This document shows, piece by piece, positions 1,636-28,049 of a DNA stretch of 35,810 nucleotides. Under the pieces are notes generated by a model that saw only the letters and a list, made by a program, of their open reading frames with translations, searched no databases and was not told the DNA's origin. Each line of letters opens with the position of its first letter. Within the stretch, counting starts at the first letter, position 1. The stretch is taken from positions 1 through 35,810 of the IMG/VR virus record IMGVR_UViG_2579778748_000004. One strand, written 5' to 3'. The DNA comes from a virus. Taxonomy: Duplodnaviria; Heunggongvirae; Uroviricota; Caudoviricetes. The position numbers and the translations under genes were made by a program.

Positions 1636-1854
1636 TTACATCCACATAATTTGCTGCCCTGACGGCAACGGGTGCGGCCTTACGGCGTGGACTTCTCCCG
1701 GCTTCACGATGTATCGCTGTACCGACTCATAAGTGATGAACGTGGCGCTGCAATTCACGTTCTGACACTGGTGATAACGCTCTTTTGTCGTGTCAGTGAT
1801 ATAGCGGCTTGTACGCGCATGTGCGGCATGCTGGCATAAAGGACAATGAAACAT
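1636..1854 (-). CDS. ogr: Late-gene transcriptional activator Ogr (zinc finger)
   Basis: 72-aa product from the internal ATG at 1854 (MFHCPLCQHAAHARTSRYITDTTKERYHQCQNVNCS...); Cys4 zinc-finger pattern; sits at the end of the tail operon as in P2. Confidence 0.9.
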   Translation of the reverse strand: MFHCPLCQHAAHARTSRYITDTTKERYHQCQNVNCSATFITYESVQRYIVKPGEVHAVRPHPLPSGQQIMWM

Positions 1855-1935
1855 CGCGAGCACCTCTTCCGGTTTTGTTGATGGTGCCATTTTAGTTAAT
1901 TTATCCTTATAAAACAAACAGATAAAATAAAAACA

Positions 1936-3592: not shown

Positions 3593-6040
3593 TTAACCGT
3601 CATGCATCATGCTGGCACGGGCACGCGCACGTTTATCCCGCTCGTATTTTTCGAGCGCATCCTGTAACTGGCGGTCAAGCTGTGTCCCCGGCGCAGTACC
3701 ACCCGTCAGGCTGATGTGATATTCGTTTTTACTCTGGTCCACATAAGAGCGGCCAGCCGGTGCCGTGACTGGCTGATAAGCCTGATAGCCTGCATAAGAG
3801 CTGGTCGCCGGAATATAACCACCGGTGCCATACGTGGCGGCATGAGTTCTGGCGGCGGTCTGGTCAAGTGTGTCTGACTCTTTGTTGATGACCCCGAGCT
3901 TTTCCAGTACCCAGTCAATACCGCTGCGCAGTTTGTTGAACGCATTAAGCGGCAGCATCAACGCGTCAGCCAGTGCCTGCCCGAACATGACGCCCGTGTC
4001 ACGGCAACGGTTCAGGGTGTCCTGTGTGGCTTTAACCGGGGCAATCAGGTTTTTAAACCACTGCCACGCGGCCTGTAACTTTTCGCCCAGCCAGTCAAAC
4101 ACCGGCTTCAGTGGCGTGAACAGTTCTCCCACCGGCGCAAATGCCGCTTTCAGCCCTTCCATCACACCGCCAAAGAATGCGCTGACAGGCTCCCAGTATT
4201 TACGGATAAGCAACGCCCCGGCGACAATGGCGGCCACCACGGCCACAACCGGCCAGCTAATCGCCCCGATGGCCGTCATAACAGCACTGCTAACCGTCGT
4301 GAAGATTGCCCCCATTGCGCCTGCTGCCGCGATAATGGCATTGATGCCGGTGATAACCGGCCAGGCTACAAGACCAATGGTACCGATGATGCCAGTAAGC
4401 GCCAGCGCGCCACCGACAATGAGGCCGATGGTTGACGCCAGTGATTTGTTTTTCTGGATCCAGCCGTCGAGTTTTAACACATACTTTGTGGCCGTCTGAG
4501 TGAGCTTACGCAGTGCGCCTTCCTGCTGGTCAAACAGGTCAATCCCCACTGCCTCATAAGCGGACTGAAACTCTTTAAAGTCACCGCCTAGGTTGTCCTG
4601 CATGATATTTACCAGCTCGGCGGTCTTCCCGTCTGATGCTTTAAACGCAGCGGTCAGTTTGTCCAGCTTTCCGGTTGAGGCGGCAGTCATCAGCACGGCG
4701 GCGGCTGAGCTGGCCTCCTCCCCGAAAATAGTTTTCATGTATTCAGCCTGCTGGGCAGTACCGAGCCGGTTTTTCTCAAAACTGGCCTGCATTTCTTTCA
4801 GAATGGTAAATATTGGCCGTGTGTTTCCCTTGCTGTCTGAGGTTTTCACTCCAAGCTCTTTGAGTGCATCCCATGCTTTTCCCGTCGGTGCCTGCAGGCG
4901 GCTTAACACGGCACGGCTTCCCGTCCCCGCCATTGAGCCTGTGATTTTTGCATCATGCAGCGCCCCGACCATTGCGGCGGTTTCTTCAATGCTGACACCG
5001 GCATTTTTTGCCACAGGTGCGGCATAGGTCAGCGCATCGCTCATGCCGTCAAAATCGGCGGCGGTTTTGTTCATCGTCATGGAGAGAACATCCCCGATAT
5101 GAGCGACCTTATCGTTTGAAAGCTGAAAGGCGGATTTCATCCCCATCAGCAGGGCGGCGTTTTCTTCCATCGTGCGGCGGTTCGCCAGCGCCATATTCAG
5201 CGTGACCGGCGTTGCCGCCTGAATGGCATCAACATCCCCACCCGCTTTCGCGATGATTATCTGTGCACCGGCCGCATCATCCGCCGAGGCGGCGGTATTG
5301 TCGCCGAGCTGGCGCGCCTGTTTGCGTAGTGCGGTCATTTCGGCGGAGTCTTTTGCCACTCCGAGCACGGCCTGCAATTCTGAGTTTTTCTGCGCAAACT
5401 CATAACCGGGCATCAGCAACTTAACTCCGGCCATCGTTCCCGCCGCCGCAATCCCCACACCGGCAGCGCCTACTGAGGCCATATTTCCGGCCAGTTCCTT
5501 TCCTGCCTGATAACGCTGTTTGACTGCGTTAAGTTTTGCCTGTTGTGCACTGACACGCGCCAGTGCATCGCGCTGACGGTTAAGTTGTGCGGTGGTTTCA
5601 CTGATACGGTTTTTCAGCCCCTGCTCATCATGTGCAAGATTGCGGGTATTAATTCCCACAGCGGCCAGTTCCCGCTGCTGGCGTTTAACAGAATCCGTCA
5701 GGCGGTTATATTTCGCCTGTAAGTCCTCCGCCGCACGCTTTGCGGATTCCAGCACTTTCGCCTGAGCACGGGTTGGACGTTCGGTATTTTTAAACTGTGT
5801 GGCAAGGGCTTCGGCCTCCTGCCGTGCCTTTTCAAGTGCATGACCAGTCACGGCGAGCTGTGCACTGGTCTTGCGGAATCCCTCAATACGGGATGCGTGA
5901 CCGTTCAGCTCGCGCAGTGATTTTTGTGTTTCCCGGATATCCCCCGACAGCGACCTGCTCGCTGTACGGATGGATTTAAACGGGCGGGATGCCTGGTCAA
6001 CAGCCCTGAGCAATACCTGTAATTTTACATTGTTACTCAT
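3593..6040 (-). CDS. T: Tail tape-measure protein T
   Basis: 815 aa; coiled-coil N-terminal half and Gly/Ala-rich hydrophobic segments typical of tape-measure proteins; P2 synteny. Confidence 0.9.
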   Translation of the reverse strand: MSNNVKLQVLLRAVDQASRPFKSIRTASRSLSGDIRETQKSLRELNGHASRIEGFRKTSAQLAVTGHALEKARQEAEALATQFKNTERPTRAQAKVLESAKRAAEDLQAKYNRLTDSVKRQQRELAAVGINTRNLAHDEQGLKNRISETTAQLNRQRDALARVSAQQAKLNAVKQRYQAGKELAGNMASVGAAGVGIAAAGTMAGVKLLMPGYEFAQKNSELQAVLGVAKDSAEMTALRKQARQLGDNTAASADDAAGAQIIIAKAGGDVDAIQAATPVTLNMALANRRTMEENAALLMGMKSAFQLSNDKVAHIGDVLSMTMNKTAADFDGMSDALTYAAPVAKNAGVSIEETAAMVGALHDAKITGSMAGTGSRAVLSRLQAPTGKAWDALKELGVKTSDSKGNTRPIFTILKEMQASFEKNRLGTAQQAEYMKTIFGEEASSAAAVLMTAASTGKLDKLTAAFKASDGKTAELVNIMQDNLGGDFKEFQSAYEAVGIDLFDQQEGALRKLTQTATKYVLKLDGWIQKNKSLASTIGLIVGGALALTGIIGTIGLVAWPVITGINAIIAAAGAMGAIFTTVSSAVMTAIGAISWPVVAVVAAIVAGALLIRKYWEPVSAFFGGVMEGLKAAFAPVGELFTPLKPVFDWLGEKLQAAWQWFKNLIAPVKATQDTLNRCRDTGVMFGQALADALMLPLNAFNKLRSGIDWVLEKLGVINKESDTLDQTAARTHAATYGTGGYIPATSSYAGYQAYQPVTAPAGRSYVDQSKNEYHISLTGGTAPGTQLDRQLQDALEKYERDKRARARASMMHDG

Positions 6041-6516: not shown

Positions 6517-7035
6517 TCACAGGCCGATATTGCGGCGGTGTTGCTCCAGCCGGTCGACGCCGTTCACCTTCTCAATCATGTTGATGGTGTCGATTTCGAC
6601 CAGCTCCTTACCGTCCATCGTCAGCCGGAAATAGGTGCAGACCACGGAGATTTTCGACTCAGTGTCTTCTCCCTGTTTACCCTCGCCGGTGTCGATTTCT
6701 TTCTGACGGCCACGCATGACCACTTCGACGGCCACCGTTTCGCCGGTATCGTCACGCTGGTAAGAGCCTGCAAAACGAATCGGCACAGCATCCACACCGG
6801 TTGCGGCGTAAAGCTCCCAGATAACCGAATCCGGGAAGCCCCCGAGCGACCACTCCATTGACAGCGCATCGTCATCAAGGCCGAGGTCTACCGGTGCGCT
6901 GCCGTTCATCCCCGCACCGCGATAGTTTTCGAGCTTACGGGTCAGTTTTGGCAGCGTGACGGACTTTGCAACGCCCTGATAGCTGTAGCCGTTCAGAAAG
7001 ACGTTCATTAACTTGAGTTTGCGCGGCATTGCCAT
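6517..7035 (-). CDS. FII: Tail tube protein FII
   Basis: 172 aa; P2 synteny immediately downstream of FI. Confidence 0.85.
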   Translation of the reverse strand: MAMPRKLKLMNVFLNGYSYQGVAKSVTLPKLTRKLENYRGAGMNGSAPVDLGLDDDALSMEWSLGGFPDSVIWELYAATGVDAVPIRFAGSYQRDDTGETVAVEVVMRGRQKEIDTGEGKQGEDTESKISVVCTYFRLTMDGKELVEIDTINMIEKVNGVDRLEQHRRNIGL

Positions 7036-7047
7036 CGGTCAGGCTCC

Positions 7048-8238
7048 TTAATTGCTGTTAACCGAGGTGACCAGATTTGCCAGGTATTTATCGGTAATAC
7101 GCTGGCGCAGGGTCAGGTTTTCAAGAGGAGGCACCGGTGTATAGTCGTAGTCGATATACAGTTTTCCGGCCTTGAGGGTTTCCGCATCGTTGGATTCTTC
7201 GCTGAACCAGCAGGTCGCATCCACGATATAGCCGTTTGTTTTCAGCTCACGGAATTTGGCATTGATGCCGTCAACGATGTCGCGAATCAGCGTTGCGGTG
7301 ATGGGCTTGTCCACCGCCCACATGTGCGCCTCAGCCATCGTGTCGGCCAGCACCTGCGCGGTGCGGGTGTAGTTTTCAAAGAGGAACAGCGGGTCATCAG
7401 AGCAGGTACGGTTACCCCAGAATCGGAAACCGTCACGGCGAATCAGCGTTGTGACACCTGACTCGTTCAACAGGTCAGCATCGGTGCCGGACTCCTGCAA
7501 ATCCCAGAATACAGAGGCACTGATGCCGGTAACACCGTTTACCCCGACGTTGGACAGCGTTTTATGCCAGCCCTGCTCCTGGTCGATTTTAGCGCGCAGG
7601 CCCAGCGCACGGGCGGTGGCATACGCGGTGGCGGTGGTACTGGCGACCGTATCCCATGCGAGGAAATCCGGCCAGATGACCATCAGCTCACGCTGGCTGA
7701 AATTCTGGCGGTAGGCTTTCACCTCGGAAATGGTTTTACAGCCCCATGCACTGATATACCCGAAAGCGCGCAGCTTCTGACAGACTGATGCCAGTGCAAC
7801 CGCCACCTCTTTGGTGTCCAGTCCCGGCACACCGAGAATACGCGGTTTAACACCGGTAACCGACTCCGCCGCCAGCAGGGCTTTCAGTCCGGTGTACTGA
7901 CCGTTTTCGTCGGTGGTGCCGATGATATTGGAAACAGTCTGCGCGAGTTTCGTTTCTTCGTCTTCGCCGGTCCCGTCTTCCACACGCACGACAACGGTGA
8001 CCGGTTTTGACTGGTCGGCGATGGCCTGCAACGATGCCGCCAGCGTGCCTTTTTTACCGGCCTTTGCAATTGCGCTCTGCACATTGGTAATCAGCACCGG
8101 TTTATTGAGGGGGAAGGTTTCCGCATCCGCATCGCTGGCCGTGCAGACCATGCCGACAATGGCCGTGGATACGGTGGAAATGACGCGGGTGCCGTCGTTA
8201 ATCTCCAGCACCTGCACGCCGTGATGATAGTCACTCAT
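7048..8238 (-). CDS. FI: Contractile tail sheath protein FI
   Basis: 396 aa; P2 synteny; GGAG ribosome-binding site upstream of the ATG at 8238. Confidence 0.9.
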   Translation of the reverse strand: MSDYHHGVQVLEINDGTRVISTVSTAIVGMVCTASDADAETFPLNKPVLITNVQSAIAKAGKKGTLAASLQAIADQSKPVTVVVRVEDGTGEDEETKLAQTVSNIIGTTDENGQYTGLKALLAAESVTGVKPRILGVPGLDTKEVAVALASVCQKLRAFGYISAWGCKTISEVKAYRQNFSQRELMVIWPDFLAWDTVASTTATAYATARALGLRAKIDQEQGWHKTLSNVGVNGVTGISASVFWDLQESGTDADLLNESGVTTLIRRDGFRFWGNRTCSDDPLFLFENYTRTAQVLADTMAEAHMWAVDKPITATLIRDIVDGINAKFRELKTNGYIVDATCWFSEESNDAETLKAGKLYIDYDYTPVPPLENLTLRQRITDKYLANLVTSVNSN

Positions 8239-8332
8239 CCGTTTAACTCCGTGGTTAATGGGTGCAACTATTTTCCGTTGGGTAGTACATGAGACGCTAT
8301 TTGACCTAGCTGGTCAGGGGATGAAACAACAG

Positions 8333-8361
8333 ATAAAGAAAAGGCGGGAAATCAGCCCGCC
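8333..8361 (-). terminator. Intrinsic terminator separating the cargo/tail-fibre transcript from the FI operon
   Basis: Hairpin GGCGGG-AAATCAG-CCCGCC followed on the minus strand by TTTTCTTTAT. Confidence 0.55.
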
Positions 8362-8675
8362 TGTCCTGATTTGTACACACTCATTTTCCGACTGACTATT
8401 TACATAGCCGAAACGCTATCAAATATGACAGTCTGCTTTTAGCTAAGAGCGGAAGTTGTCACGAAGTTACTCTCCCCTGAGTGCAAATCCCCCAAAGTCA
8501 TTCGCAGATCAGTACCGAAAGGCGATCACTTTAACGCTCTGTATTGCGAGTGCTCAAATAAGGAGTGAGGCCATACCTACGTATTGAATCTGACGTTCTC
8601 ACACACGTTGAGCCCCAGCTCAATAGCGGCAGACCGACTGCTGAAAGAGCCGGTTAGCCAACTCAGCCCCTAGCA

Positions 8676-8740
8676 CGTAAAACTGCCCTAGATTTACTGC
8701 AGGGCAGTTAATGTAAAAGCCTCGCACTTGCGGAGGCAGT
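8676..8740 (-). terminator. Tandem hairpins downstream of the cargo operon
   Basis: Two stem-loops (about 8719..8737 and 8681..8709), each followed on the minus strand by TTTT, directly 3' of the 174-aa ORF stop. Confidence 0.45.
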
Positions 8741-8748
8741 ATTATAAT

Positions 8749-9273
8749 TCAAGCTTCATTCTTTAGTTTTTCAATGTGATTAACCTCATCATTGCTTGCT
8801 TTAGCTGCTGATTGGCCTTTCTTACTTATAATCCCTTTAACATAATTTACATTATCAATGGAGGCATCTAAGAATTTTTGAAACGACTTAGAATTAAGCA
8901 TTTCTGTCCAAGGAGTAGTATGATCTTCATCTTTCACAAAACGCAATGGAGCCTCTTCAAGTCGACTTAGCGCAGAATCAAATAAGCGTTTTTCGAACTC
9001 TCCATCTGATACCTTGCATGCCTCATTTTTGTATCCCTCATACGCTTTAGCCACAGAAGCTTTATAAGCATAATCCTCTGCGAGTTTGAAACGTTGATTA
9101 ATTTGTTTTGTAGACATCCAAGCAAACCAAAGAGGGGCGCCTATGCTAAAAACAGATAATAGTAATTGAGTGAGTATTACTACCGCACTAGGATTTGGGT
9201 TATTCAAAACCCCAGAAAGAACTTTCAATCTTTCATATCCGACTAAACCACCAAGCCCCAAAGCAACTGCCAA
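8749..9273 (-). CDS. Hypothetical membrane protein, second gene of the Z/fun-position cargo operon
   Basis: 174-aa ORF; strongly hydrophobic segment AVVILTQLLLSVFSIGAPLWFAW predicted as transmembrane; AT-rich compared with flanking phage genes; the ORF-track start is a TTG, so the true start is uncertain. Confidence 0.6.
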   Translation of the reverse strand: MAVALGLGGLVGYERLKVLSGVLNNPNPSAVVILTQLLLSVFSIGAPLWFAWMSTKQINQRFKLAEDYAYKASVAKAYEGYKNEACKVSDGEFEKRLFDSALSRLEEAPLRFVKDEDHTTPWTEMLNSKSFQKFLDASIDNVNYVKGIISKKGQSAAKASNDEVNHIEKLKNEA

Positions 9274-9398
9274 ACCGGCAACCCATAGTTGGATACTTCG
9301 GTTAAGCTTATCTGCTTTTATTTCAAATGCTCCTGCTAAGCCTTTCGATGTTGAAGCCCTAATAGCCTCTTCGCAAAGAGCCAGATACCGGGCAGCCT

Positions 9399-10049
9399 CT
9401 ATATTTTTTCTTGCAACTCATCAATAATTTTTTTTGCGGCTTCTTCTTGGGACTCTAAACTGAAATGAGTTTTAGATATCTTCTCCTTTAAATCAGATGC
9501 TTCTTTGTTGTATTCCTTTAATTCATTTAAGTCTATAGGTATATTTTCTGCAGCTACATGAGCATCATTAATCGTTTTAACTTTACTCTCAAGAGCATCC
9601 ATCTCAGGATCAATCTTGTTAATTCTCGCCTCCATGCTTTTAATTTTTCTGCTTAAATTTCTAGGAAGTAAATTAGCATTATCCAACCGCTTCCATGTAA
9701 ACGATTCATCCAAGAAATGGTCAACATATGCCAGTGTTAGCATATATGAAGATATAGCTCGTGCGGAGTTAACGCCTGAGAACTCTGGGACGTGAACTCT
9801 AATGAGTGTGTCAATTTTTTCAGGGAGAGATGAATAAGCGGCAATTTCTTTTTCAGTTAGTTCAATATCACCATATGCTTTCAGCTTGTTAATAATGCAA
9901 ATTATTTGGTCAATTAGGTCATCTGATGTTATTGCCGGAACATCAACCCCAAGAGTATTCGTCATCAACCCATCTTGGATGGTCAGACCTTCTATAGCCT
10001 TCTCAAGCCTCAAAAGTGCGTCATAAGTTCCCTTAAAGCCAGTATGCAT
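9399..10049 (-). CDS. Hypothetical coiled-coil protein, first gene of the Z/fun-position cargo operon
   Basis: 216-aa ORF with an ATG start; K/E-rich heptad-like C-terminus (…EARINKIDPEMDALESKVKTINDAH… and …ESQEEAAKKIIDELQEKI); AT-rich; no catalytic motif I can recognise. Confidence 0.65.
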   Translation of the reverse strand: MHTGFKGTYDALLRLEKAIEGLTIQDGLMTNTLGVDVPAITSDDLIDQIICIINKLKAYGDIELTEKEIAAYSSLPEKIDTLIRVHVPEFSGVNSARAISSYMLTLAYVDHFLDESFTWKRLDNANLLPRNLSRKIKSMEARINKIDPEMDALESKVKTINDAHVAAENIPIDLNELKEYNKEASDLKEKISKTHFSLESQEEAAKKIIDELQEKI

Positions 10050-10075
10050 ATTTTATTCCATGAACTTAAGTGATG

Positions 10076-10081
10076 ATTATA
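10076..10081 (-). promoter_or_regulatory. Candidate -10 hexamer (TATAAT) for the cargo operon
   Basis: Perfect TATAAT on the minus strand about 27 nt upstream of the 216-aa ORF start codon, in an AT-rich intergenic region; no good -35 at canonical spacing. Confidence 0.3.
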
Positions 10082-10343
10082 CAGGCTGCTTTGCAACCTG
10101 CTTTCGTTGTTAGTGTATGTAGCATATACATAATTCTATAGCGTATACCTATTCATTTTACCCTTCGTTTTCACAGGAAGCCATATGATTAATGCCGCTT
10201 AAAAAGCCAGCAGTGTAGTGGCATACGGATTTTGGCCACAGAAGCAGAAGTGTGGGATGTCCGCTCCTGGCACAGAGCGGACTGTCAGATTAGGCTTTAC
10301 TCTGTGCCATAGATATGTAAACTCCCACCAGAACTCATACAAC

Positions 10344-10871
10344 TTATTGCGGCATTTCTGGCCATTCAGGATTTGCAGTATCCACACGACTGACCAGAAC
10401 GTTGTAGCGTTCCCATGCTTCCAGTCGGCTGCGTTCCTCATCTGTTGCCATATTCAGCCTGACAGCGCGCTCCAGCGGCAAAATCACGGATTCAGCATCT
10501 GCAAGAAGTCTGCCTTTCCGATTTTCTGCCTGCTGCTGCAATTCCTCTGCCGTATAAATTCGTTTAATCACAGCACCATCCTTAAACATCCATTTACCTG
10601 AGTCGTCAGCACGTCGGTTGGAGGTAATATCAGGAACCTCAACAACGCTAAAACCTTCAGGATTAAGCGTTGAAGCATCTCTGGTGATAGCGACAATAAT
10701 ATTATTTTCATCGTAAACAATCTTTATTGTGTCTGGCTGAAAGTTCTTCACTTCCTCATACCAGTTTTTTCCGTCCTCAGAGTAAAGCCAGATAACTCCG
10801 TGTTTCTTTGTTAACTCATACTGTTCCAGTGTTTTAGCGTTACCCGCTTTTATGTTCTTTAAGTGCATCAT
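10344..10871 (-). CDS. G: Tail fibre assembly protein G
   Basis: 175 aa; directly downstream of the tail fibre gene; C-terminal ...[10 protein letters not shown] motif typical of tail-fibre assembly chaperones. Confidence 0.85.
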
Positions 10872-23686: not shown

Positions 23687-24720
23687 TGAGCAAGAAAAAA
23701 GGGAAAACACCGCAACCTGCGGCAAAAACAATGACCGCCAGCGCCCCGAAAATGGAGGCATTCACCTTTGGTGAGCCGGTGCCGGTACTCGACCGCCGTG
23801 ACATTCTGGATTACGTCGAGTGCATCAGTAACGGCAGATGGTATGAGCCACCGGTCAGCTTTACCGGTCTGGCAAAAAGCCTGCGTGCTGCCGTGCATCA
23901 CAGCTCACCGATTTACGTCAAACGTAATATTCTGGCCTCGACATTTATCCCGCATCCGTGGCTTTCCCAGCAGGATTTCAGCCGCTTTGTGCTGGATTTT
24001 CTGGTGTTCGGTAATGCGTTTCTGGAAAAGCGTTACAGCACCACCGGTAAGGTCATCAGGCTGGAAACCTCACCGGCAAAATATACCCGCCGTGGTGTGG
24101 AAGAGGATGTTTACTGGTGGGTGCCGTCCTTCAACGAGCCGACAGCCTTCGCGCCCGGCTCCGTGTTTCACCTGCTGGAGCCGGATATTAATCAGGAGCT
24201 GTACGGCCTGCCGGAATATCTCAGCGCCCTTAATTCTGCCTGGCTGAATGAGTCGGCCACGCTGTTCCGCCGCAAGTATTACGAAAACGGCGCTCATGCC
24301 GGATATATCATGTACGTCACCGATGCCGTGCAGGATCGCAACGATATCGAAATGCTTCGCGAAAACATGGTCAAGTCGAAAGGCCGCAACAACTTTAAAA
24401 ATCTGTTTCTCTATGCCCCGCAGGGGAAAGCCGACGGCATTAAAATTATCCCGCTCAGTGAAGTGGCAACGAAGGACGATTTTTTTAATATCAAAAAAGC
24501 CAGCGCCGCTGACCTGCTGGACGCGCACCGCATCCCCTTTCAGTTGATGGGCGGCAAGCCGGAGAACGTCGGGTCGCTGGGTGATATTGAGAAAGTGGCA
24601 AAGGTCTTTGTCCGCAATGAGCTTATCCCTCTACAGGACAGGATCCGCGAGATAAACGGCTGGCTCGGTCAGGAGGTCATCCGCTTTAAAAACTACTCAC
24701 TGGACACTGACAACGGCTGA
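23686..24720 (+). CDS. Q: Portal protein Q
   Basis: 344 aa; start overlaps the P stop (TGATGA); P2 synteny. Confidence 0.9.
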   Translation: MSKKKGKTPQPAAKTMTASAPKMEAFTFGEPVPVLDRRDILDYVECISNGRWYEPPVSFTGLAKSLRAAVHHSSPIYVKRNILASTFIPHPWLSQQDFSRFVLDFLVFGNAFLEKRYSTTGKVIRLETSPAKYTRRGVEEDVYWWVPSFNEPTAFAPGSVFHLLEPDINQELYGLPEYLSALNSAWLNESATLFRRKYYENGAHAGYIMYVTDAVQDRNDIEMLRENMVKSKGRNNFKNLFLYAPQGKADGIKIIPLSEVATKDDFFNIKKASAADLLDAHRIPFQLMGGKPENVGSLGDIEKVAKVFVRNELIPLQDRIREINGWLGQEVIRFKNYSLDTDNG

Positions 24721-24725
24721 ACATC

Positions 24726-24747
24726 GCCGCCTGCGGGCGGCTTTTTT
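24726..24747 (+). terminator. Intrinsic terminator after Q
   Basis: Hairpin GCCGCC-TGCG-GGCGGC followed by TTTTTT, immediately 3' of the Q stop. Confidence 0.7.
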
Positions 24748-24889
24748 ACACCCCGTCATCACGCCCTCACACGCTCACCACCGCACAAAACACCCCGCAG
24801 ACACACCAACGCCTCAACGGGCAGACTAAGCGCCTTCACGACGCGCTCAGACGCTGAAAAAATAAAATCAGCACCACCGCCAGCGCGCA

Positions 24890-24908
24890 GTGCTTTCCCC
24901 GCCTCGCC
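24890..24908. other. cos site (19-nt cohesive-end sequence)
   Basis: GTGCTTTCCCCGCCTCGCC is the reverse complement of the P2 cohesive end GGCGAGGCGGGGAAAGCAC as I recall it; located between Q and the early region as in P2. Confidence 0.75.
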
Positions 24909-25059
24909 CGCCCGCTTCATAGGTCGGTTTTAATGCAGGTGCATTACCACTTTTGAGGGGCGTCCGTCCTGACGGTGCACAGCCAGAACATGCAACTTAG
25001 GCACATGCAAAACCACGCACATATTGCATGCACTGCTAAAAATAGGAGTATCGCAGAAA

Positions 25060-25096
25060 AAAACACAAAAAAACCGGCATTCATAGTGCCGGTTTT
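25060..25096. terminator. Bidirectional intrinsic terminator
   Basis: Hairpin CCGGCA-TTCATAG-TGCCGG flanked by an A-run on the 5' side and a T-run on the 3' side. Confidence 0.5.
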
Positions 25097-25231
25097 GGCC
25101 AATTTTTAAAGTTGTCACTGGCCGCGCAATGCACCAATCTCACTGTTGACGCACATGTTGACAACAATTAGCAGAACAATCGTGTCCACACATTTTTACA
25201 AACGACACCTAACAGATTGATACAGATCATT

Positions 25232-25426
25232 TTATTTGTTCATTCGAATATAATTCAATAGCATCTTGATGACCTGAGCGAGTTCTACGCTAGTTGCCTG
25301 CGCAACCAGCTTATCGGTATATATGTCAACTTCGCGTGAACTAAGATCATTGTTTTGTGCCAGAGTGGTAATCTGCCTCGTCCAGCGTTTAACCCACTCA
25401 TTATCAAAAGAAATGGAATTTTGCAT
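25232..25426 (-). CDS. Hypothetical small protein (64 aa), divergent from the cargo genes; may be spurious
   Basis: AT-rich ORF whose ATG shares the palindrome CATG with the start of the opposite-strand 145-aa ORF; no convincing ribosome-binding site. Confidence 0.25.
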   Translation of the reverse strand: MQNSISFDNEWVKRWTRQITTLAQNNDLSSREVDIYTDKLVAQATSVELAQVIKMLLNYIRMNK

Positions 25427-25862
25427 GTCGAAAAATCTCGATTTATTTAACCAACAAACGGCGGAAATCTTTGCAGTACTATGGGAAAATTTTCCCGTAC
25501 CACAGGTGATTAACTACGACAAATTTAACGCCGCGCTACCTGATGACTACTTTGACCAACTTAACTCACCAGAAATGAAAGCGTTAAATCAGTTGCGTAG
25601 TGTGGTTGAAGGTACATTCAATTTTCTCTGTGAAAACGGGTACATTCAGTACAACACAGACCATCAGTCGTATTTTTACGATGTTCGACTTACTGAAAAA
25701 GCGCTCACAGTTCTTAACAAAAAACCCGAGGTGCTTGGTGGAAATGAAACGATGGGGGATAAAGTGATCAGTGCGGTGAAAGATGGGACTCCTGGGGTCA
25801 TTGCCGGTGTGATTACAAATCTGCTGACTCACGGCGTTAATCTGGTTGCGTCAGTGTCATAG
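25425..25862 (+). CDS. Hypothetical protein (about 145 aa), first gene of the old/tin-position cargo
   Basis: ORF-track frame 25323..25862; likely starts at the ATG at 25425 (MSKNLDLFNQQ…) or 25413; AT-rich; soluble-looking; no motif I can assign. Confidence 0.6.
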   Translation: MSKNLDLFNQQTAEIFAVLWENFPVPQVINYDKFNAALPDDYFDQLNSPEMKALNQLRSVVEGTFNFLCENGYIQYNTDHQSYFYDVRLTEKALTVLNKKPEVLGGNETMGDKVISAVKDGTPGVIAGVITNLLTHGVNLVASVS

Positions 25863-26024
25863 CCAACGCCCCAAAGAGACTCATTGTCCCTCGTCACACT
25901 ACTTGCTTTTAGTTCTGACGAGATTAAATCCGCTCACAGTGTTTACTGCGGAAAAGTTGCGTTATTATCCATATGATTTAACATCTTGGATTCATGTTAA
26001 TTCACAGTTTAATAAGGATATGGA

Positions 26025-27116
26025 ATGGGTTACGAAATTGATTTTCTAGCTGTTGGCGAAAAAAAAAGCGGCGATGCGATCTGCATCAGATGGGGAAACC
26101 TACATGGTTCAAGAGATGAACAAAAAGTTGTCGTTATTGATGCAGGATATGCCAGCACCGGAGAACAAGTCATTGAGCATATTGAAAAATACTACCGCAC
26201 AAAAACTATTGACTTGCTTATCTCCACACACCCCGATGGTGACCACGTCGGTGGACTTACATCTGTTCTAGAAAATGCAGAAGTAAAAGAGTTTTGGATT
26301 CATAAGCCTTGGGAACATAATCAAGGTCTCGCAAGTGAGTTTGCAGATGGCAGGATAACTGATGCCAGTATTGCAAATCGAATGAAAGAAAACTTACAAA
26401 AAGCTTATGACGCTGTCAAATTAGCGGAAAAAAAAGGAATTGAAATAAAAGAGCCTTTTCAAGGAATGACCTGGGATAATGCTACTCTGGTTGTTATCGG
26501 GCCAACCCAATCTTACTATGAGACTCTAATACCTGATTTCGCAAGAATGCCCAAAAAAGCTGAGGATACAGCTGGATTTGAAGTACTAAAAGCAGTCTTT
26601 GAGTCTGTAGTTGAAAAAACGAAGAAATTTATTGATTACGTTGCTGAATGGTTTACTGATGAAGGTATTGATAATGAAGATACCACCTCGGCACAAAATA
26701 ACTCAAGTGTCATTTTGAAACTTGAGATTGATGGAAGAACGTTAGTGTTCACTGGCGATGCTGGTATAACAGCCTTAGATCAAGCCTCCCAATACATTAA
26801 TAAAGAATCATTAAGATTCATTCAAGTACCTCATCATGGTAGCCGGAGAAATGTAGGCCCTGATGTTCTCGATAAACTTGTTGGTAACATTGTAAATGAA
26901 GGCGAAAAAAGGGAGATAACCGCATTTGTATCATGTGCCCCAGGTTCAGATAAACATCCCCATCAAGCTGTAATTAATGCCTTTACTCGACGAGGAGCGA
27001 AAGTTATCGCCACCGAGGGGCTTGGTAAGTACCATTTTTATAATGCTCCTGAAAGGGCAGGATGGAAAACAGCCACTCCACGATCATACATTAGTAACTA
27101 TAGAACCGAAGAATAA
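26025..27116 (+). CDS. Metallo-beta-lactamase-fold protein, ComEC/Rec2-like, putative nuclease
   Basis: 363 aa with AAGGA ribosome-binding site; motif series VVVIDAGY, THPDGDHVGG (H-x-D-x-D-H), VFTGDAG and VPHHGSR fits the metallo-beta-lactamase fold of the ComEC type as I recall it; AT-rich. Confidence 0.7.
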   Translation: MGYEIDFLAVGEKKSGDAICIRWGNLHGSRDEQKVVVIDAGYASTGEQVIEHIEKYYRTKTIDLLISTHPDGDHVGGLTSVLENAEVKEFWIHKPWEHNQGLASEFADGRITDASIANRMKENLQKAYDAVKLAEKKGIEIKEPFQGMTWDNATLVVIGPTQSYYETLIPDFARMPKKAEDTAGFEVLKAVFESVVEKTKKFIDYVAEWFTDEGIDNEDTTSAQNNSSVILKLEIDGRTLVFTGDAGITALDQASQYINKESLRFIQVPHHGSRRNVGPDVLDKLVGNIVNEGEKREITAFVSCAPGSDKHPHQAVINAFTRRGAKVIATEGLGKYHFYNAPERAGWKTATPRSYISNYRTEE

Positions 27117-27129
27117 TTCAAAAGCTGCC

Positions 27130-27750
27130 TTACGGCAGCTTATTATTAACAGCATTTACTCTATATATTATGTATCTTATTTGTTTAATATATGAGACAA
27201 CAAACAAAATAGCAAAAACCGCCAACGTTATTTTAGATAAGCCATATGTCTCGCCAGTAAACCGTCCTACAACGCACAATGTCGCCAAAAGAATAATTGA
27301 CATTGAAAATATCGTCCTATACATATTCGCAATCTCTTGCAAAGTTTCAATTTTTCCATCCACACCACATGCTGACACATAATCTTTATAAGGAGCAAAC
27401 TTAATCAAACGCGATAGTTTTAAAAAAGGTTCCAATACGATAGAACCAATCCGGCCAATGACTAAGCCAACAAAATAATAGAGGACAACATTTTTTATTA
27501 AATCATCGCCAGATAAAACGATATTCGTCATTCTCTCAAGAAGATAAATAAAAAGAGCACCTGGAAAAAGATTATTAAATATATTATATGACGATATTTT
27601 TTCCCATAAACCATCCATACCAATCACCTTACTACAGTTTAAATCAGAGATCATTTTCATTGAAAAATACATATATAGCAAGAAATCTATAGCGATTCTG
27701 ACATCCAACCTGAGTCTATCAGTAGTTAATCTCTTCAGAAAAGAGTGCAT
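27130..27750 (-). CDS. Hypothetical multi-pass membrane protein (about 206 aa)
   Basis: ORF 27130..27762, with ATG at 27750; four to five hydrophobic helices; very AT-rich; convergent with the MBL-fold gene, stops 13 bp apart. Confidence 0.6.
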   Translation of the reverse strand: MHSFLKRLTTDRLRLDVRIAIDFLLYMYFSMKMISDLNCSKVIGMDGLWEKISSYNIFNNLFPGALFIYLLERMTNIVLSGDDLIKNVVLYYFVGLVIGRIGSIVLEPFLKLSRLIKFAPYKDYVSACGVDGKIETLQEIANMYRTIFSMSIILLATLCVVGRFTGETYGLSKITLAVFAILFVVSYIKQIRYIIYRVNAVNNKLP

Positions 27751-27904
27751 AACGAAAACCAATCACAGGAAATCGGCTATGTAAATTTTCGACCGTCGTA
27801 TATCAATGGTACACCACGCCCCCCACGCTTACATTACTTCTGTGTGATGCCATACTGAGCGAGGTCTATATAAATACTAGTAATTTATCACAAACCTGAT
27901 TTGA

Positions 27905-28049
27905 TCAGCCTCGCGATGGCACAAATGCAAGCGGTTTTAACGGACTTCCGTTTCTTTGCTGACGATTTGGTATTCTCAGACCGTGTTTTAATGCACCTCT
28001 GAGCGCCCTCACGACCGCCGGATCATTCCATTCGATTACCCGTCATCAA
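27905..28049. repeat. Degenerate direct repeat of the A 3' region, copy 1 (spans the A stop codon)
   Basis: About 120 bp at 27931..28049 is roughly 92% identical to 28263..28382 inside A; weaker similarity extends about 25 bp further upstream. Confidence 0.75.

What the first reader, a model, noticed from the sequence alone, without database searches (positions are those of the whole stretch)
8749..10049. Two-gene AT-rich cargo operon at the Z/fun hotspot: coiled-coil protein plus membrane protein
Between tail-fibre assembly gene G and sheath gene FI, where P2 carries Z/fun, there is a low-GC operon on the same strand as the tail genes: a 216-aa protein with a K/E-rich coiled-coil C-terminus, followed by a 174-aa protein with a strongly hydrophobic N-terminal segment. 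It is bracketed by hairpin terminators and has a perfect TATAAT upstream. This second P2 hotspot commonly carries defence systems. A soluble coiled-coil protein paired with a small membrane protein resembles abortive-infection modules, but I see no recognisable catalytic domain.
Basis: partly seen in the sequence, partly recalled or inferred. Interest (0 to 1): 0.8.

Follow-up and report, generated by a model that had tools for sequence, protein, structure and literature searches.

The report
Frameshifted single-gene membrane cargo in P2 prophage
The supposed two-gene operon is one 433-residue membrane-anchored coiled-coil gene broken by loss of a single A; it belongs to a large uncharacterised family that recurs in prophage defence hotspots, so the family is an untested phage-defence candidate but this copy is probably dead.

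Summary
The ORFs, the low GC content and the position between tail genes G and FI are all real. The "two-gene operon" is not. Both ORFs are halves of one gene (window 8749-10049, minus strand), split because an A7 run has become A6 at 9404-9409. Intact E. coli alleles encode one 433-aa protein. All 56 homologous loci I examined, and nearly all of about 545 distant cluster representatives, are single ORFs of roughly 400-470 aa.

The protein has an N-terminal helical bundle, a long coiled-coil stalk, a two-helix membrane hairpin and a near-invariant juxtamembrane helix. It matches no Pfam, PADLOC or NCBIfam family and no solved structure.

The family has no conserved partner gene. It sits in the other P2 hotspot (replication gene to portal) in at least 13 lineages, and also on plasmids and integrative elements. 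Rousset et al. 2022 list a 64%-identical homologue as untested "system 102, 2 TM".

A degraded ogr fragment at 8458-8670 shows that the 1.8-kb cassette came from that other hotspot in a 186-like phage.

The most likely function is a stand-alone, membrane-acting phage exclusion or abortive-infection protein (inferred, about 50%). The gene was inactivated at least three separate times in E. coli.

The parts
8749..10049 (-). One gene for a 433-aa protein, here disrupted by a frameshift. The intact allele is WP_021548490.1 / P0001.
   Evidence: Alignment with E. coli RS571 (L001:4152-5453) shows one difference inside the gene: a missing A. The family is full-length and single-ORF everywhere else.
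9404..9409 (-). A6 run, the site of the 1-nt deletion (A7 in intact alleles). It shifts translation into a TAG stop at 9399-9401.
   Evidence: A6 occurs on two different SNP haplotypes. The exact truncated products are seen on 333 and 322 public contigs.
9399..10049 (-). 5' ORF of 216 aa, covering the N-terminal helical bundle (residues 1-122) and about two thirds of the coiled-coil stalk.
8749..9417 (-). 3' reading frame, open from 9417 and annotated from TTG 9273. It encodes the rest of the stalk, the conserved pre-TM motif, TM1 (9226-9288), a loop, TM2 (9112-9177), the near-invariant juxtamembrane helix (9013-9111) and the C-terminal domain.
10076..10081 (-). TATAAT hexamer 27 nt upstream of the ATG. 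It is a possible -10 element with no recognisable -35.
10082..10100 (-). Hairpin CAGGTTGC-AAA-GCAGCCTG, immediately 5' of the TATAAT. A hairpin with a different stem sequence sits at the same place in the Enterobacter homologue locus.
   Evidence: (-10.9 kcal/mol) and the alignment.
8681..8737 (-). Two hairpins after the stop codon (8719-8737 and 8681-8709), each followed by UUUU. They are probable terminators lying between the convergent cargo gene and the ogr remnant.
8458..8670 (+). Remnant of an ogr/delta-type zinc-finger late activator. It is truncated at the 5' end exactly at the P2-backbone junction, the first Cys is replaced by Ser, and it contains an in-frame stop. A weak frame-shifted continuation runs to about 8711.
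   Evidence: tblastn gives 76-77% identity to Ogr residues 23-93 of L073/L010, E=6e-34. The backbone junction is placed.
8458..10256 (.). The 1.8-kb foreign cassette inserted between G and FI.
   Evidence: Boundaries against three P2-like phages. A 1.6-kb stretch (10070-8475) is 73.6% identical to hotspot-1 DNA of an Enterobacter 186-like prophage.
10181..10215 (-). Possible relic of the last codons of the donor phage's replication gene (CWLFKRH* against CWIFKRS*). This assignment is tentative.
   Evidence: 34 nt at 82% identity; weak.

Best explanation
Shown by the sequence:
- Window 8749-10049 (minus strand) is a single gene, split into 216-aa and 174-aa ORFs by loss of one A from an A7 run.
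- The intact 433-aa protein belongs to a large family with one uniform architecture and no assigned function.
- Its parts are an N-terminal helical bundle (1-122); a coiled-coil stalk of about 130 residues that runs straight into TM1 (about 255-275); a short loop; TM2 (about 292-313, with the motif GAPLWFAW); a near-invariant juxtamembrane helix (TKQIxQRFxLAEDYAfKASVAKAYEGY); and a conserved C-terminal helical region.
- The gene arrived as a 1.8-kb cassette copied from the replication-gene/ogr-portal hotspot of a 186-like phage, and it brought a fragment of ogr with it.

Inferred:
- With no signal peptide, both termini are probably cytoplasmic.
- The protein is probably a stand-alone prophage "moron" that excludes other phages by acting at the inner membrane.
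- In this model the distal bundle and stalk sense an infection cue, and the conserved membrane hairpin plus juxtamembrane helix form the effector. The effector would either permeabilise or depolarise the membrane (abortive infection) or block DNA entry.
- In this window the protein is truncated after residue 214, so the system is off, or at most leaky.
For: One gene, not two:
- A single-base difference separates the window from the intact allele.
- Among 19 near-identical closed E. coli genomes, 11 have one CDS, 7 have the split form and 1 has an IS1 insertion.
- All 56 loci examined carry one ORF.
- 545 cluster representatives score E<=1e-30, and the 150 listed are nearly all 400-475 aa with a single full-length match.

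Architecture:
- AlphaFold2 model with pLDDT 71.9, all-alpha, with one helix spanning 130-282.
- Hydropathy and per-segment conservation.
- Alignment A1.
- The N-terminal domain is homologous in 319 of 321 members.

Mobile accessory or defence-type cargo:
- Gene GC is 0.34-0.38 against 0.48-0.57 in the flanks of enterobacterial loci.
- In 13 of 40 lineages the gene lies between the P2 replication gene and portal/terminase, which is the old/tin hotspot.
- It is listed as "System 102, 32 occurrences, 2 TM" in Table S5B of Rousset et al. 2022, PMC9122126, 64% identical to this protein.
- It also occurs in an integrative mobilisable element, in a tRNA-Asn island, on plasmids and in Providencia phage PSTCR8lys.
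- Neighbours include a type IV restriction enzyme, TIR, AbiZ, HerA, NsnA and PDC candidates and an "Abi family protein".
- No partner gene is conserved.

Cassette origin.

The literature places defence systems in this tail-gene hotspot (10.1101/2024.10.15.618418; 10.64898/2026.02.27.708500).
Against: - No experiment exists for any member of the family. Rousset et al. catalogued a homologue but it is absent from their table of tested systems.
- There is no hit to any PADLOC model, including the PD-T4, PD-T7, PD-Lambda and PDC sets.
- The family's motifs and accessions do not appear in the held supplements of Vassallo 2022, DefensePredictor or the 2026 P2/P4 preprint.
- Several homologues are in ordinary chromosomal settings: after recBCD in Luteimonas, after nrdAB in Pseudomonas, and in Cronobacter.
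- Defence hits among neighbours are modest: roughly 8-10 of 142 ORFs, excluding the phage Dam methylases. These neighbours come largely from contigs chosen as viral, and no background rate was computed.
- The N-terminal domain is merely divergent, not swapped, so the "variable sensor" idea is weak.
- Topology, oligomeric state and any pore activity are pure inference.
- Fold searches return only generic helical matches.
Confidence: 0.5

Rival explanations
1. A mobile-element accessory gene that is not anti-phage. A membrane-anchored coiled-coil protein could serve another purpose for the carrying element or host, such as envelope-stress tolerance, membrane remodelling, exclusion of conjugative DNA, or a host-interaction factor.
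For: - P2 hotspots also carry non-defence cargo such as partition systems, cytolethal distending toxin and tail-fibre modules.
- Some homologues sit in plain chromosomal contexts.
- Weak, sub-threshold similarity to EzrA-like membrane-tethered coiled coils appears in 11 of 58 members.
- No known defence model is hit.
Against: - The family recurs at the exact slots where old/tin-type exclusion genes sit.
- It is spread across phages, plasmids and integrative elements.
- It is adjacent to restriction or Abi genes in several loci.
- The EzrA hits are below the Pfam threshold and confined to the coiled coil.
Confidence: 0.3
2. One reading: a genuine two-component module, in which the soluble 216-aa coiled-coil protein and the 174-aa membrane protein work together as separately translated products.
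For: - RefSeq annotates them as two hypothetical proteins (WP_050485420.1 and WP_050485419.1).
- The split allele is common, seen on about 330 contigs.
Against: - The split is a 1-nt deletion relative to otherwise near-identical intact alleles.
- No homologue anywhere is split.
- The 3' ORF can only start at a TTG inside TM1, without a convincing ribosome-binding site. Its product would lack half of TM1 and all of the conserved pre-TM motif.
Confidence: 0.04
3. A switchable or recoded gene. The A-run would act as an on/off contingency tract, or a -1 slip of tRNA-Lys on AAA before the rare ATA codon and the TAG stop would restore the exact wild-type sequence at low level, so the A6 allele would be leaky rather than dead.
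For: - The same A7-to-A6 change occurs on two different SNP haplotypes.
- A -1 shift at that Lys codon regenerates ...QEKNIEAARY..., identical to the intact protein (inference from known slipperiness of A-runs).
Against: - The tract is only 6-7 nt long.
- It is not conserved in homologues, which use other codons at that site.
- An A8 run 26 nt upstream is unchanged in every allele compared.
- No stimulatory structure was identified.
- An IS1 insertion in another strain points to plain inactivation.
Confidence: 0.06
4. A tail or tail-fibre accessory or structural protein, expressed with the late tail operons.
For: It lies on the same strand between G and FI.
Against: - Other P2-like phages lack it, carrying unrelated cargo at this position.
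- It occurs between replication and portal genes, on plasmids and in chromosomes without tail genes.
- It is a predicted inner-membrane protein.
- Terminator-like hairpins separate it from FI.
Confidence: 0.02

Closest known systems
"System #102" of the P2 gpA-gpQ hotspot catalogue (Rousset et al. 2022, Cell Host Microbe, PMC9122126, Table S5B)
   Same: The same protein family: 64% identity over 399 aa. It is a single hypothetical protein with no Pfam domain, noted as "2 TM", carried by E. coli P2-like prophages with 32 occurrences.
   Different: That entry is in the replication-gene/portal hotspot; this copy is in the G-FI (Z/fun) hotspot and is frameshifted. The catalogue entry carries no name, no test and no mechanism.
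phrog_34659 (PHROGs v4, unknown function)
   Same: Full-length match, 433 of 433 positions, E=0.
   Different: A purely sequence-based cluster with no functional annotation.
P2 accessory exclusion genes (old, tin, Z/fun) and other hotspot-encoded single-gene defences such as DUF4238
   Same: The same genomic logic: AT-rich non-essential cargo in the two P2 hotspots, probably expressed from the prophage.
   Different: There is no sequence similarity. The 299-aa cargo at the same slot in NC_070904 is unrelated, and no PADLOC model matches. Old is a nuclease/ATPase and Tin is described in the P2 literature as a cytoplasmic exclusion protein (my own knowledge, not tested here). This protein is a membrane-anchored coiled coil without an enzymatic domain.
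Membrane-spanning abortive-infection effectors (RexB, CBASS/Pycsar/retron 2TM-4TM effectors, the transmembrane partners in Rst_2TM_1TM_TIR)
   Same: It would work like them if the conserved TM hairpin is the killing or blocking module. This rests on inference from the architecture only.
   Different: Those effectors are partnered with a separate sensor or signal-generating enzyme. This family has no conserved partner, carries its own 250-residue cytoplasmic bundle and stalk, and shows no homology to them.
ZorA of Zorya (a membrane anchor with a long cytoplasmic coiled-coil tail)
   Same: A loose architectural analogy: a membrane-embedded module joined to a long cytoplasmic coiled coil that could relay a signal between the envelope and the cytoplasm (my own knowledge of Zorya, not tested here).
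   Different: No PADLOC ZorA hit, no ZorB/C/D partners, the opposite domain order, 2 TM helices only, and about 430 aa.

Membership tests
Uncharacterised 2-TM coiled-coil family (phrog_34659; Rousset 2022 P2 system #102) | Full-length sequence homology, including the invariant core (CEEAxRxxTSKGLAGAF ... GAPLWFAW ... LAEDYAxKASVAKAYEGY) | tested here: met
   phrog_34659 E=0 over 433/433 positions. 64% identity to the system #102 sequence. Alignment A1.
Uncharacterised 2-TM coiled-coil family (phrog_34659; Rousset 2022 P2 system #102) | A single uninterrupted ORF of about 400-470 aa | tested here: not met
   The window copy is split by a 1-nt deletion. It is a disrupted member of the family; intact alleles meet the feature.
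Uncharacterised 2-TM coiled-coil family (phrog_34659; Rousset 2022 P2 system #102) | Stand-alone cargo of mobile-element hotspots, with no conserved partner gene | tested here: met
   Neighbour clustering over 40 lineages finds only phage core genes recurring.
Known anti-phage defence systems (PADLOC-DB v2.0.0, including PD-T4, PD-T7, PD-Lambda, Rst and PDC candidates) | A significant match to a system's protein HMM | tested here: not met
   Only coiled-coil noise (LmuB, DruC; E>=1e-3) for the halves and for the intact protein. The E. coli D7 homologue has no hit.
Known anti-phage defence systems (functional definition) | Experimentally reduces phage plating or burst | not testable with these tools
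   No paper in the library contains the family's motifs or accessions. The family is absent from the held supplements of the tested sets.
Defence-island / hotspot-associated genes (guilt by association) | Recurrent placement in recognised defence hotspots or next to known defence genes | tested here: inconclusive
   It lies in P2 hotspot 1 in at least 13 of 40 lineages and in the Z/fun hotspot here. Scattered defence neighbours were found. No genome-wide enrichment statistic against a background was computed, and some contexts are plainly chromosomal.
Pfam / NCBIfam curated families | A score above the curated cut-off for any model | tested here: not met
   All hits fall below the gathering score and lie in the coiled coil.
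Proteins of known structure | A specific fold match | tested here: not met
   Homologues are always fused into one ORF.
Programmed -1 frameshift / contingency locus | A conserved slippery tract (with a stimulator), or a tract maintained across homologues | tested here: not met
   The A-run at this site is not conserved in homologues, and the intact allele needs no shift. Low-level slippage is not excluded.

The most novel reading that the evidence does not exclude
The intact family is a new, widespread, stand-alone anti-phage protein with a previously undescribed all-alpha membrane architecture, in which a cytoplasmic bundle on a long coiled-coil stalk controls a conserved two-helix membrane effector. 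On this reading, its repeated knock-out in E. coli (A-run slippage at least twice, plus IS1) reflects an autoimmune cost or on/off switching. The ogr fossil would then document direct shuttling of a defence cassette between the two P2 hotspots.
Probability: 0.4. Interest if true: 0.65.

Novelty: new variant of a known kind. Interest (0 to 1): 0.45.

Why it matters
If the family is a defence protein, it would add a domain-less, single-polypeptide, membrane-anchored system that current tools (PADLOC, Pfam, NCBIfam) do not see. It is present in hundreds of sequence clusters across Gamma- and Betaproteobacteria and on phages, plasmids and integrative elements.

There are three practical points:
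- Anyone cloning this locus from this strain would be testing a broken allele. The intact A7 allele (for example WP_021548490.1) is the one to use.
- RefSeq annotates the two halves as separate hypothetical proteins on hundreds of contigs, which inflates gene counts and hides a pseudogene.
- The ogr remnant is direct sequence evidence that cargo cassettes move between the two P2 hotspots and between 186-like and P2-like phages. Three independent inactivations contrast with the reported rarity of defence pseudogenes in P2 (10.64898/2026.02.27.708500).

Tried and rejected
- Pfam, PADLOC, NCBIfam and PHROGs scans of the halves, the intact protein and a distant homologue gave only coiled-coil noise plus two PHROGs of unknown function. 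A per-member Pfam scan of 58 homologues gave sub-threshold EzrA hits in 11, judged to be coiled-coil bias.
- An Rfam scan of 8200-10400 found nothing credible.
- The promoter scan found no more sites than chance.
- A megablast search of the cargo against isolated phages found no match. A protein search found only Providencia phage PSTCR8lys.
- I searched for a conserved partner gene and found none. The best non-core neighbour cluster, of about 270 aa at position -1, occurs in only 4 lineages and has no Pfam or PADLOC hit.
- I tested for modular swapping of the N-terminal "sensor" and rejected it: the N-terminal domain is homologous in 319 of 321 members.
- The dedicated phase-variation tract idea was rejected because the tract is not conserved.
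- Similarity to the cargo at the same slot in another P2 genome was absent.
- Literature and supplement searches for accessions and motifs found only the Rousset Table S5B entry.
- I did not run the expensive genome contigs or metagenome scans. The viral scan and the contig look-ups already gave diverse contexts.
Full report
**1. The observation**

The finding's two ORFs exist, on the minus strand with the tail genes: 9399-10049 (216 aa, ATG) and 8749-9273 (174 aa, TTG). They lie between the tail-fibre assembly gene G (10344-10871, Caudo_TAP E=4e-36) and the sheath gene FI (7048-8238). GC content falls to 0.33-0.41 across them, against about 0.56 in the tail genes.

Comparison with three P2-like phages places the foreign segment at about 8458-10256. 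Backbone homology stops at 10257-10267 and resumes at 8453-8458. Those phages carry unrelated cargo at the same position: a 299-aa hypothetical protein, a NUDIX plus HAD pair, and a 181-aa hypothetical protein. The "variable hotspot" description is therefore correct. It agrees with the literature on the Z/fun hotspot (10.1101/2024.10.15.618418) and with the 2026 preprint's report of defence loci within the P2 late and tail genes (10.64898/2026.02.27.708500).

**2. One gene, not two**

The reading frame of the 3' ORF is open from 9417, which is upstream of the 5' ORF's TAG stop at 9399-9401. Read across the junction, the peptide is continuous...IIDELQEK|NIEAARYLALCEEAIRASTSKGLAGAF....

A megablast search against closed E. 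coli genomes found 19 matches at >=99% identity. Eleven are 1602 nt long with one annotated CDS. Seven are 1601 nt long with two "hypothetical proteins". One carries an IS1 insertion.

Aligning the intact allele of strain RS571 (WP_021548490.1, 433 aa) with the window shows a single difference inside the gene: G-A7-T against G-A6-T at window 9404-9409. The TTG "start" of the 174-aa ORF is Leu260, in the middle of the first transmembrane helix.

**3. The split allele is real and recurrent**

The exact 216-aa and 174-aa products occur on 333 and 322 public contigs (E. coli and Shigella sonnei). The intact 433-aa variants listed add up to about 465 contigs. This is therefore not an assembly error in this one window.

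The A6 state occurs on the window's SNP haplotype (strains WP4-S17 and MSB1_7A). It also occurs in strain EC17CM6, whose SNPs match A7 haplotypes. That implies at least two independent deletions, or a recombination event. Strain 0-4 has an IS1 inserted at about codon 134.

The A-run is not conserved at this site in homologues, and an A8 run 26 nt upstream is unchanged in every allele compared. I therefore regard it as an ordinary mutational hot spot in an AT-rich, Lys/Asn-rich gene, not a dedicated contingency tract.

One inference is worth noting. A -1 slip of tRNA-Lys on AAA, just before the rare ATA codon and the TAG stop, would regenerate the exact wild-type sequence, so low-level leakiness cannot be excluded.

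**4. The protein and its family**

The word-indexed search returned 1074 relatives at E<=1e-3. The exhaustive profile search returned 2178 cluster representatives at E<=1e-3 and 545 at E<=1e-30. Of the 150 listed, nearly all are 400-475 aa with one full-length match. Source names place the family in Enterobacteriaceae, Yersinia, Stenotrophomonas, Luteimonas, Pseudomonas, Thiothrix and Herbaspirillum, and in Vibrio, Xanthomonas, Agrobacterium and Paraburkholderia plasmids.

None of these proteins carries a precomputed Pfam domain. Direct scans of Pfam, NCBIfam and PADLOC give only sub-threshold coiled-coil matches. PHROGs places the protein in phrog_34659, of unknown function.

The AlphaFold2 model (pLDDT 71.9) is all-alpha. 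It has a well-predicted N-terminal bundle (1-122, pLDDT 80-92), one helix spanning 130-282, and a second spanning 289-346. Hydropathy gives two membrane segments, at about 252-272 and 292-314, flanked by Lys/Arg. With no signal peptide and 250 residues before TM1, an N-in/C-in hairpin is the likely topology; this is an inference.

Conservation is strongly uneven across the protein:

| Segment | Residues | Mean majority frequency |
|---|---|---|
| Juxtamembrane helix | 314-346 | 0.89 |
| TM2 | 292-313 | 0.71 |
| C-terminal region | 347-392 | 0.71 |
| Pre-TM motif | 227-254 | 0.70 |
| Coiled-coil stalk | 123-226 | 0.49 |
| N-terminal bundle | 1-122 | 0.45 |

The N-terminal domain is nevertheless homologous in 319 of 321 members. 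The architecture is uniform, not modular.

**5. Genomic behaviour**

A scan of IMG/VR found 48 viral loci at 31-100% identity. Together with eight other loci, every one carries a single ORF.

I clustered all neighbouring ORFs across the 40 lineages defined at 80% identity. The only recurrent neighbours are P2 core genes. In 13 lineages the gene is followed immediately by portal and terminase and preceded by the replication gene. That is the old/tin hotspot.

Individual look-ups confirm this placement in three more loci:
- Kosakonia.
- A P2-like element on a Klebsiella plasmid.
- Enterobacter roggenkampii, whose protein is 80% identical to this one.

Other settings include:
- A Stenotrophomonas integrative mobilisable element with two integrases plus MobA/TraD.
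- An integrase island at tRNA-Asn in E. coli D7.
- The end of a prophage at icd in Enterobacter, next to a type IV restriction enzyme.
- A Xanthomonas conjugative plasmid, beside a resolvase and an IS element.
- A Vibrio plasmid, beside an integrase and an "Abi family protein".
- An IS-rich region with a type I restriction-enzyme fragment.
- Providencia phage PSTCR8lys.
- Plain chromosomal sites after recBCD in Luteimonas, after nrdAB in Pseudomonas, and in Cronobacter.

Among 142 neighbouring ORFs from the 29 lineages outside hotspot 1, Pfam finds integrases, primases, repressors and Dam methylases. PADLOC at E<=1e-10 finds one each of PDC-S59, mREase_IV, NsnA, PDC-S15, PDC-S66, HerA, a TIR protein and AbiZ. 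This is suggestive, but I did not compute a background rate.

In enterobacterial loci the gene is consistently more AT-rich than its surroundings, at 0.34-0.38 against 0.48-0.57.

**6. Prior knowledge**

Table S5B of Rousset et al. 2022 (PMC9122126) lists "System # 102". That protein is 64% identical to ours over 399 aa.

It does not appear in their table of cloned and tested systems. It also does not appear in the held supplements of Vassallo 2022, the 2026 P2/P4 preprint or DefensePredictor. No paper in the library contains the family's motifs or accessions. The family is therefore catalogued, but unnamed and untested.

**7. Where the cassette came from**

Window 10070-8475 aligns at 73.6% identity with the Enterobacter 186-like prophage L073 (6981-8567). 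This stretch runs past the cargo stop codon into that phage's ogr gene.

tblastn shows that window 8458-8670 (plus strand) encodes residues 23-93 of an Ogr/Delta zinc-finger activator at 76-77% identity (E=6e-34). In the window copy the first Cys is replaced by Ser and there is an in-frame stop. The 5' truncation falls exactly at the P2-backbone junction at 8457/8458. The prophage's own ogr-like sequence lies elsewhere, at about 1735-1863.

On the other side, window ~10181-10215 resembles the last codons of the donor's replication gene (CWLFKRH* against CWIFKRS*; weak).

The 1.8-kb segment is therefore a piece of a hotspot-1 region, ordered as replication-gene end, cargo, then convergent ogr. 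It was transplanted into the G-FI hotspot. The hairpins after the stop codon (8719-8737 and 8681-8709) lie between the convergent cargo gene and the ogr remnant, or within the remnant's 3' end.

**8. Mechanism**

Shown: this is a single, mobile, partner-less gene encoding a membrane-hairpin protein, with a long coiled coil and an extremely conserved juxtamembrane region, and it is broken here.

Inferred (about 50% for an anti-phage role; about 30% for the specific membrane-permeabilising abortive-infection version; about 15% for an entry-blocking version):
- The cytoplasmic bundle and stalk detect an infection cue.
- The conserved hairpin plus juxtamembrane helix execute the response at the inner membrane.

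Repeated inactivation in E. coli would fit a costly or self-toxic gene. It is equally compatible with simple neutrality. The main rival, at about 30%, is a non-defence accessory function.

The two-gene reading, a tail-accessory role and a dedicated recoding or phase-variation mechanism are each unlikely (<=6%).

**9. Verdict**

The novelty lies in the family, an uncharacterised hotspot cargo with no detectable relationship to any known system. It does not lie in this particular copy, which is a pseudogene.

Interest is moderate (0.45). The family is a well-defined, testable candidate among many untested hotspot cargo genes. The ogr fossil and the recurrent knock-outs are useful evolutionary details.

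Noticed in passing
window 24720-28036 (ORFs 25323-25859 +, 26025-27113 +, 27133-27762 -): The same prophage's other hotspot, between portal Q and replication gene A, is also AT-rich (GC 0.36-0.42). It carries a PADLOC candidate system: PDC-M48B (E=1e-100, with LmuA-like similarity) and PDC-M48A (E=1.5e-50). A 179-aa ORF there has no hits.
   Followed up: partly
window 8458-8670 (+), continuing weakly to about 8711: A degraded ogr/delta zinc-finger gene fragment lies just outside the finding's coordinates. It is a fossil of the cassette's previous location next to ogr and portal in a 186-like phage. The prophage's own ogr-like sequence gives a weaker match at about 1735-1863 (-).
   Followed up: yes
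RefSeq records matching window 8749-10049 (e.g. L002:4152-4802 and 4928-5452): NCBI's annotation pipeline calls the two halves as separate hypothetical proteins (WP_050485420.1 and WP_050485419.1) and does not flag a frameshifted pseudogene. These products appear on more than 320 contigs.
   Followed up: yes
L065 (E. coli strain 0-4, NZ_CP076262.1), equivalent to about window 9641-9649: An IS1B element is inserted in the N-terminal third of the same gene, with a 9-bp target overlap. This is an inactivation independent of the A-run deletion.
   Followed up: partly
window 10082-10100 (-) and L073 about 6950-6970: A hairpin sits at the same place upstream of the gene in the window (CAGGTTGC/GCAGCCTG) and in the 74%-identical Enterobacter locus (CAGGTA/TACCTG). 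The stem sequences differ. It may be the terminator of the upstream replication gene, or a regulatory element.
   Followed up: no
L016:4818-5660, L026:4943-5737, L034:4972-5769, L035:1591-2388: A protein of about 265-280 aa lies immediately upstream of the homologue in four hotspot-1 lineages. It has no Pfam or PADLOC hit. It is either another unknown cargo gene or a lineage-specific phage gene.
   Followed up: partly
L013/L014:11785-12657: In Enterobacter cancerogenus the homologue is followed by a type IV methyl-directed restriction enzyme (PADLOC mREase_IV, E=2e-74). The pair sits beside icd both with and without the adjoining prophage, which suggests a small two-gene defence islet left at a prophage attachment site.
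   Followed up: partly
window 10250-10315 (-): An 11-bp-stem hairpin lies in conserved P2 backbone just after the G stop codon, with no T-run (-20.3 kcal/mol, z = -2.4). It is not part of the cargo.
   Followed up: no
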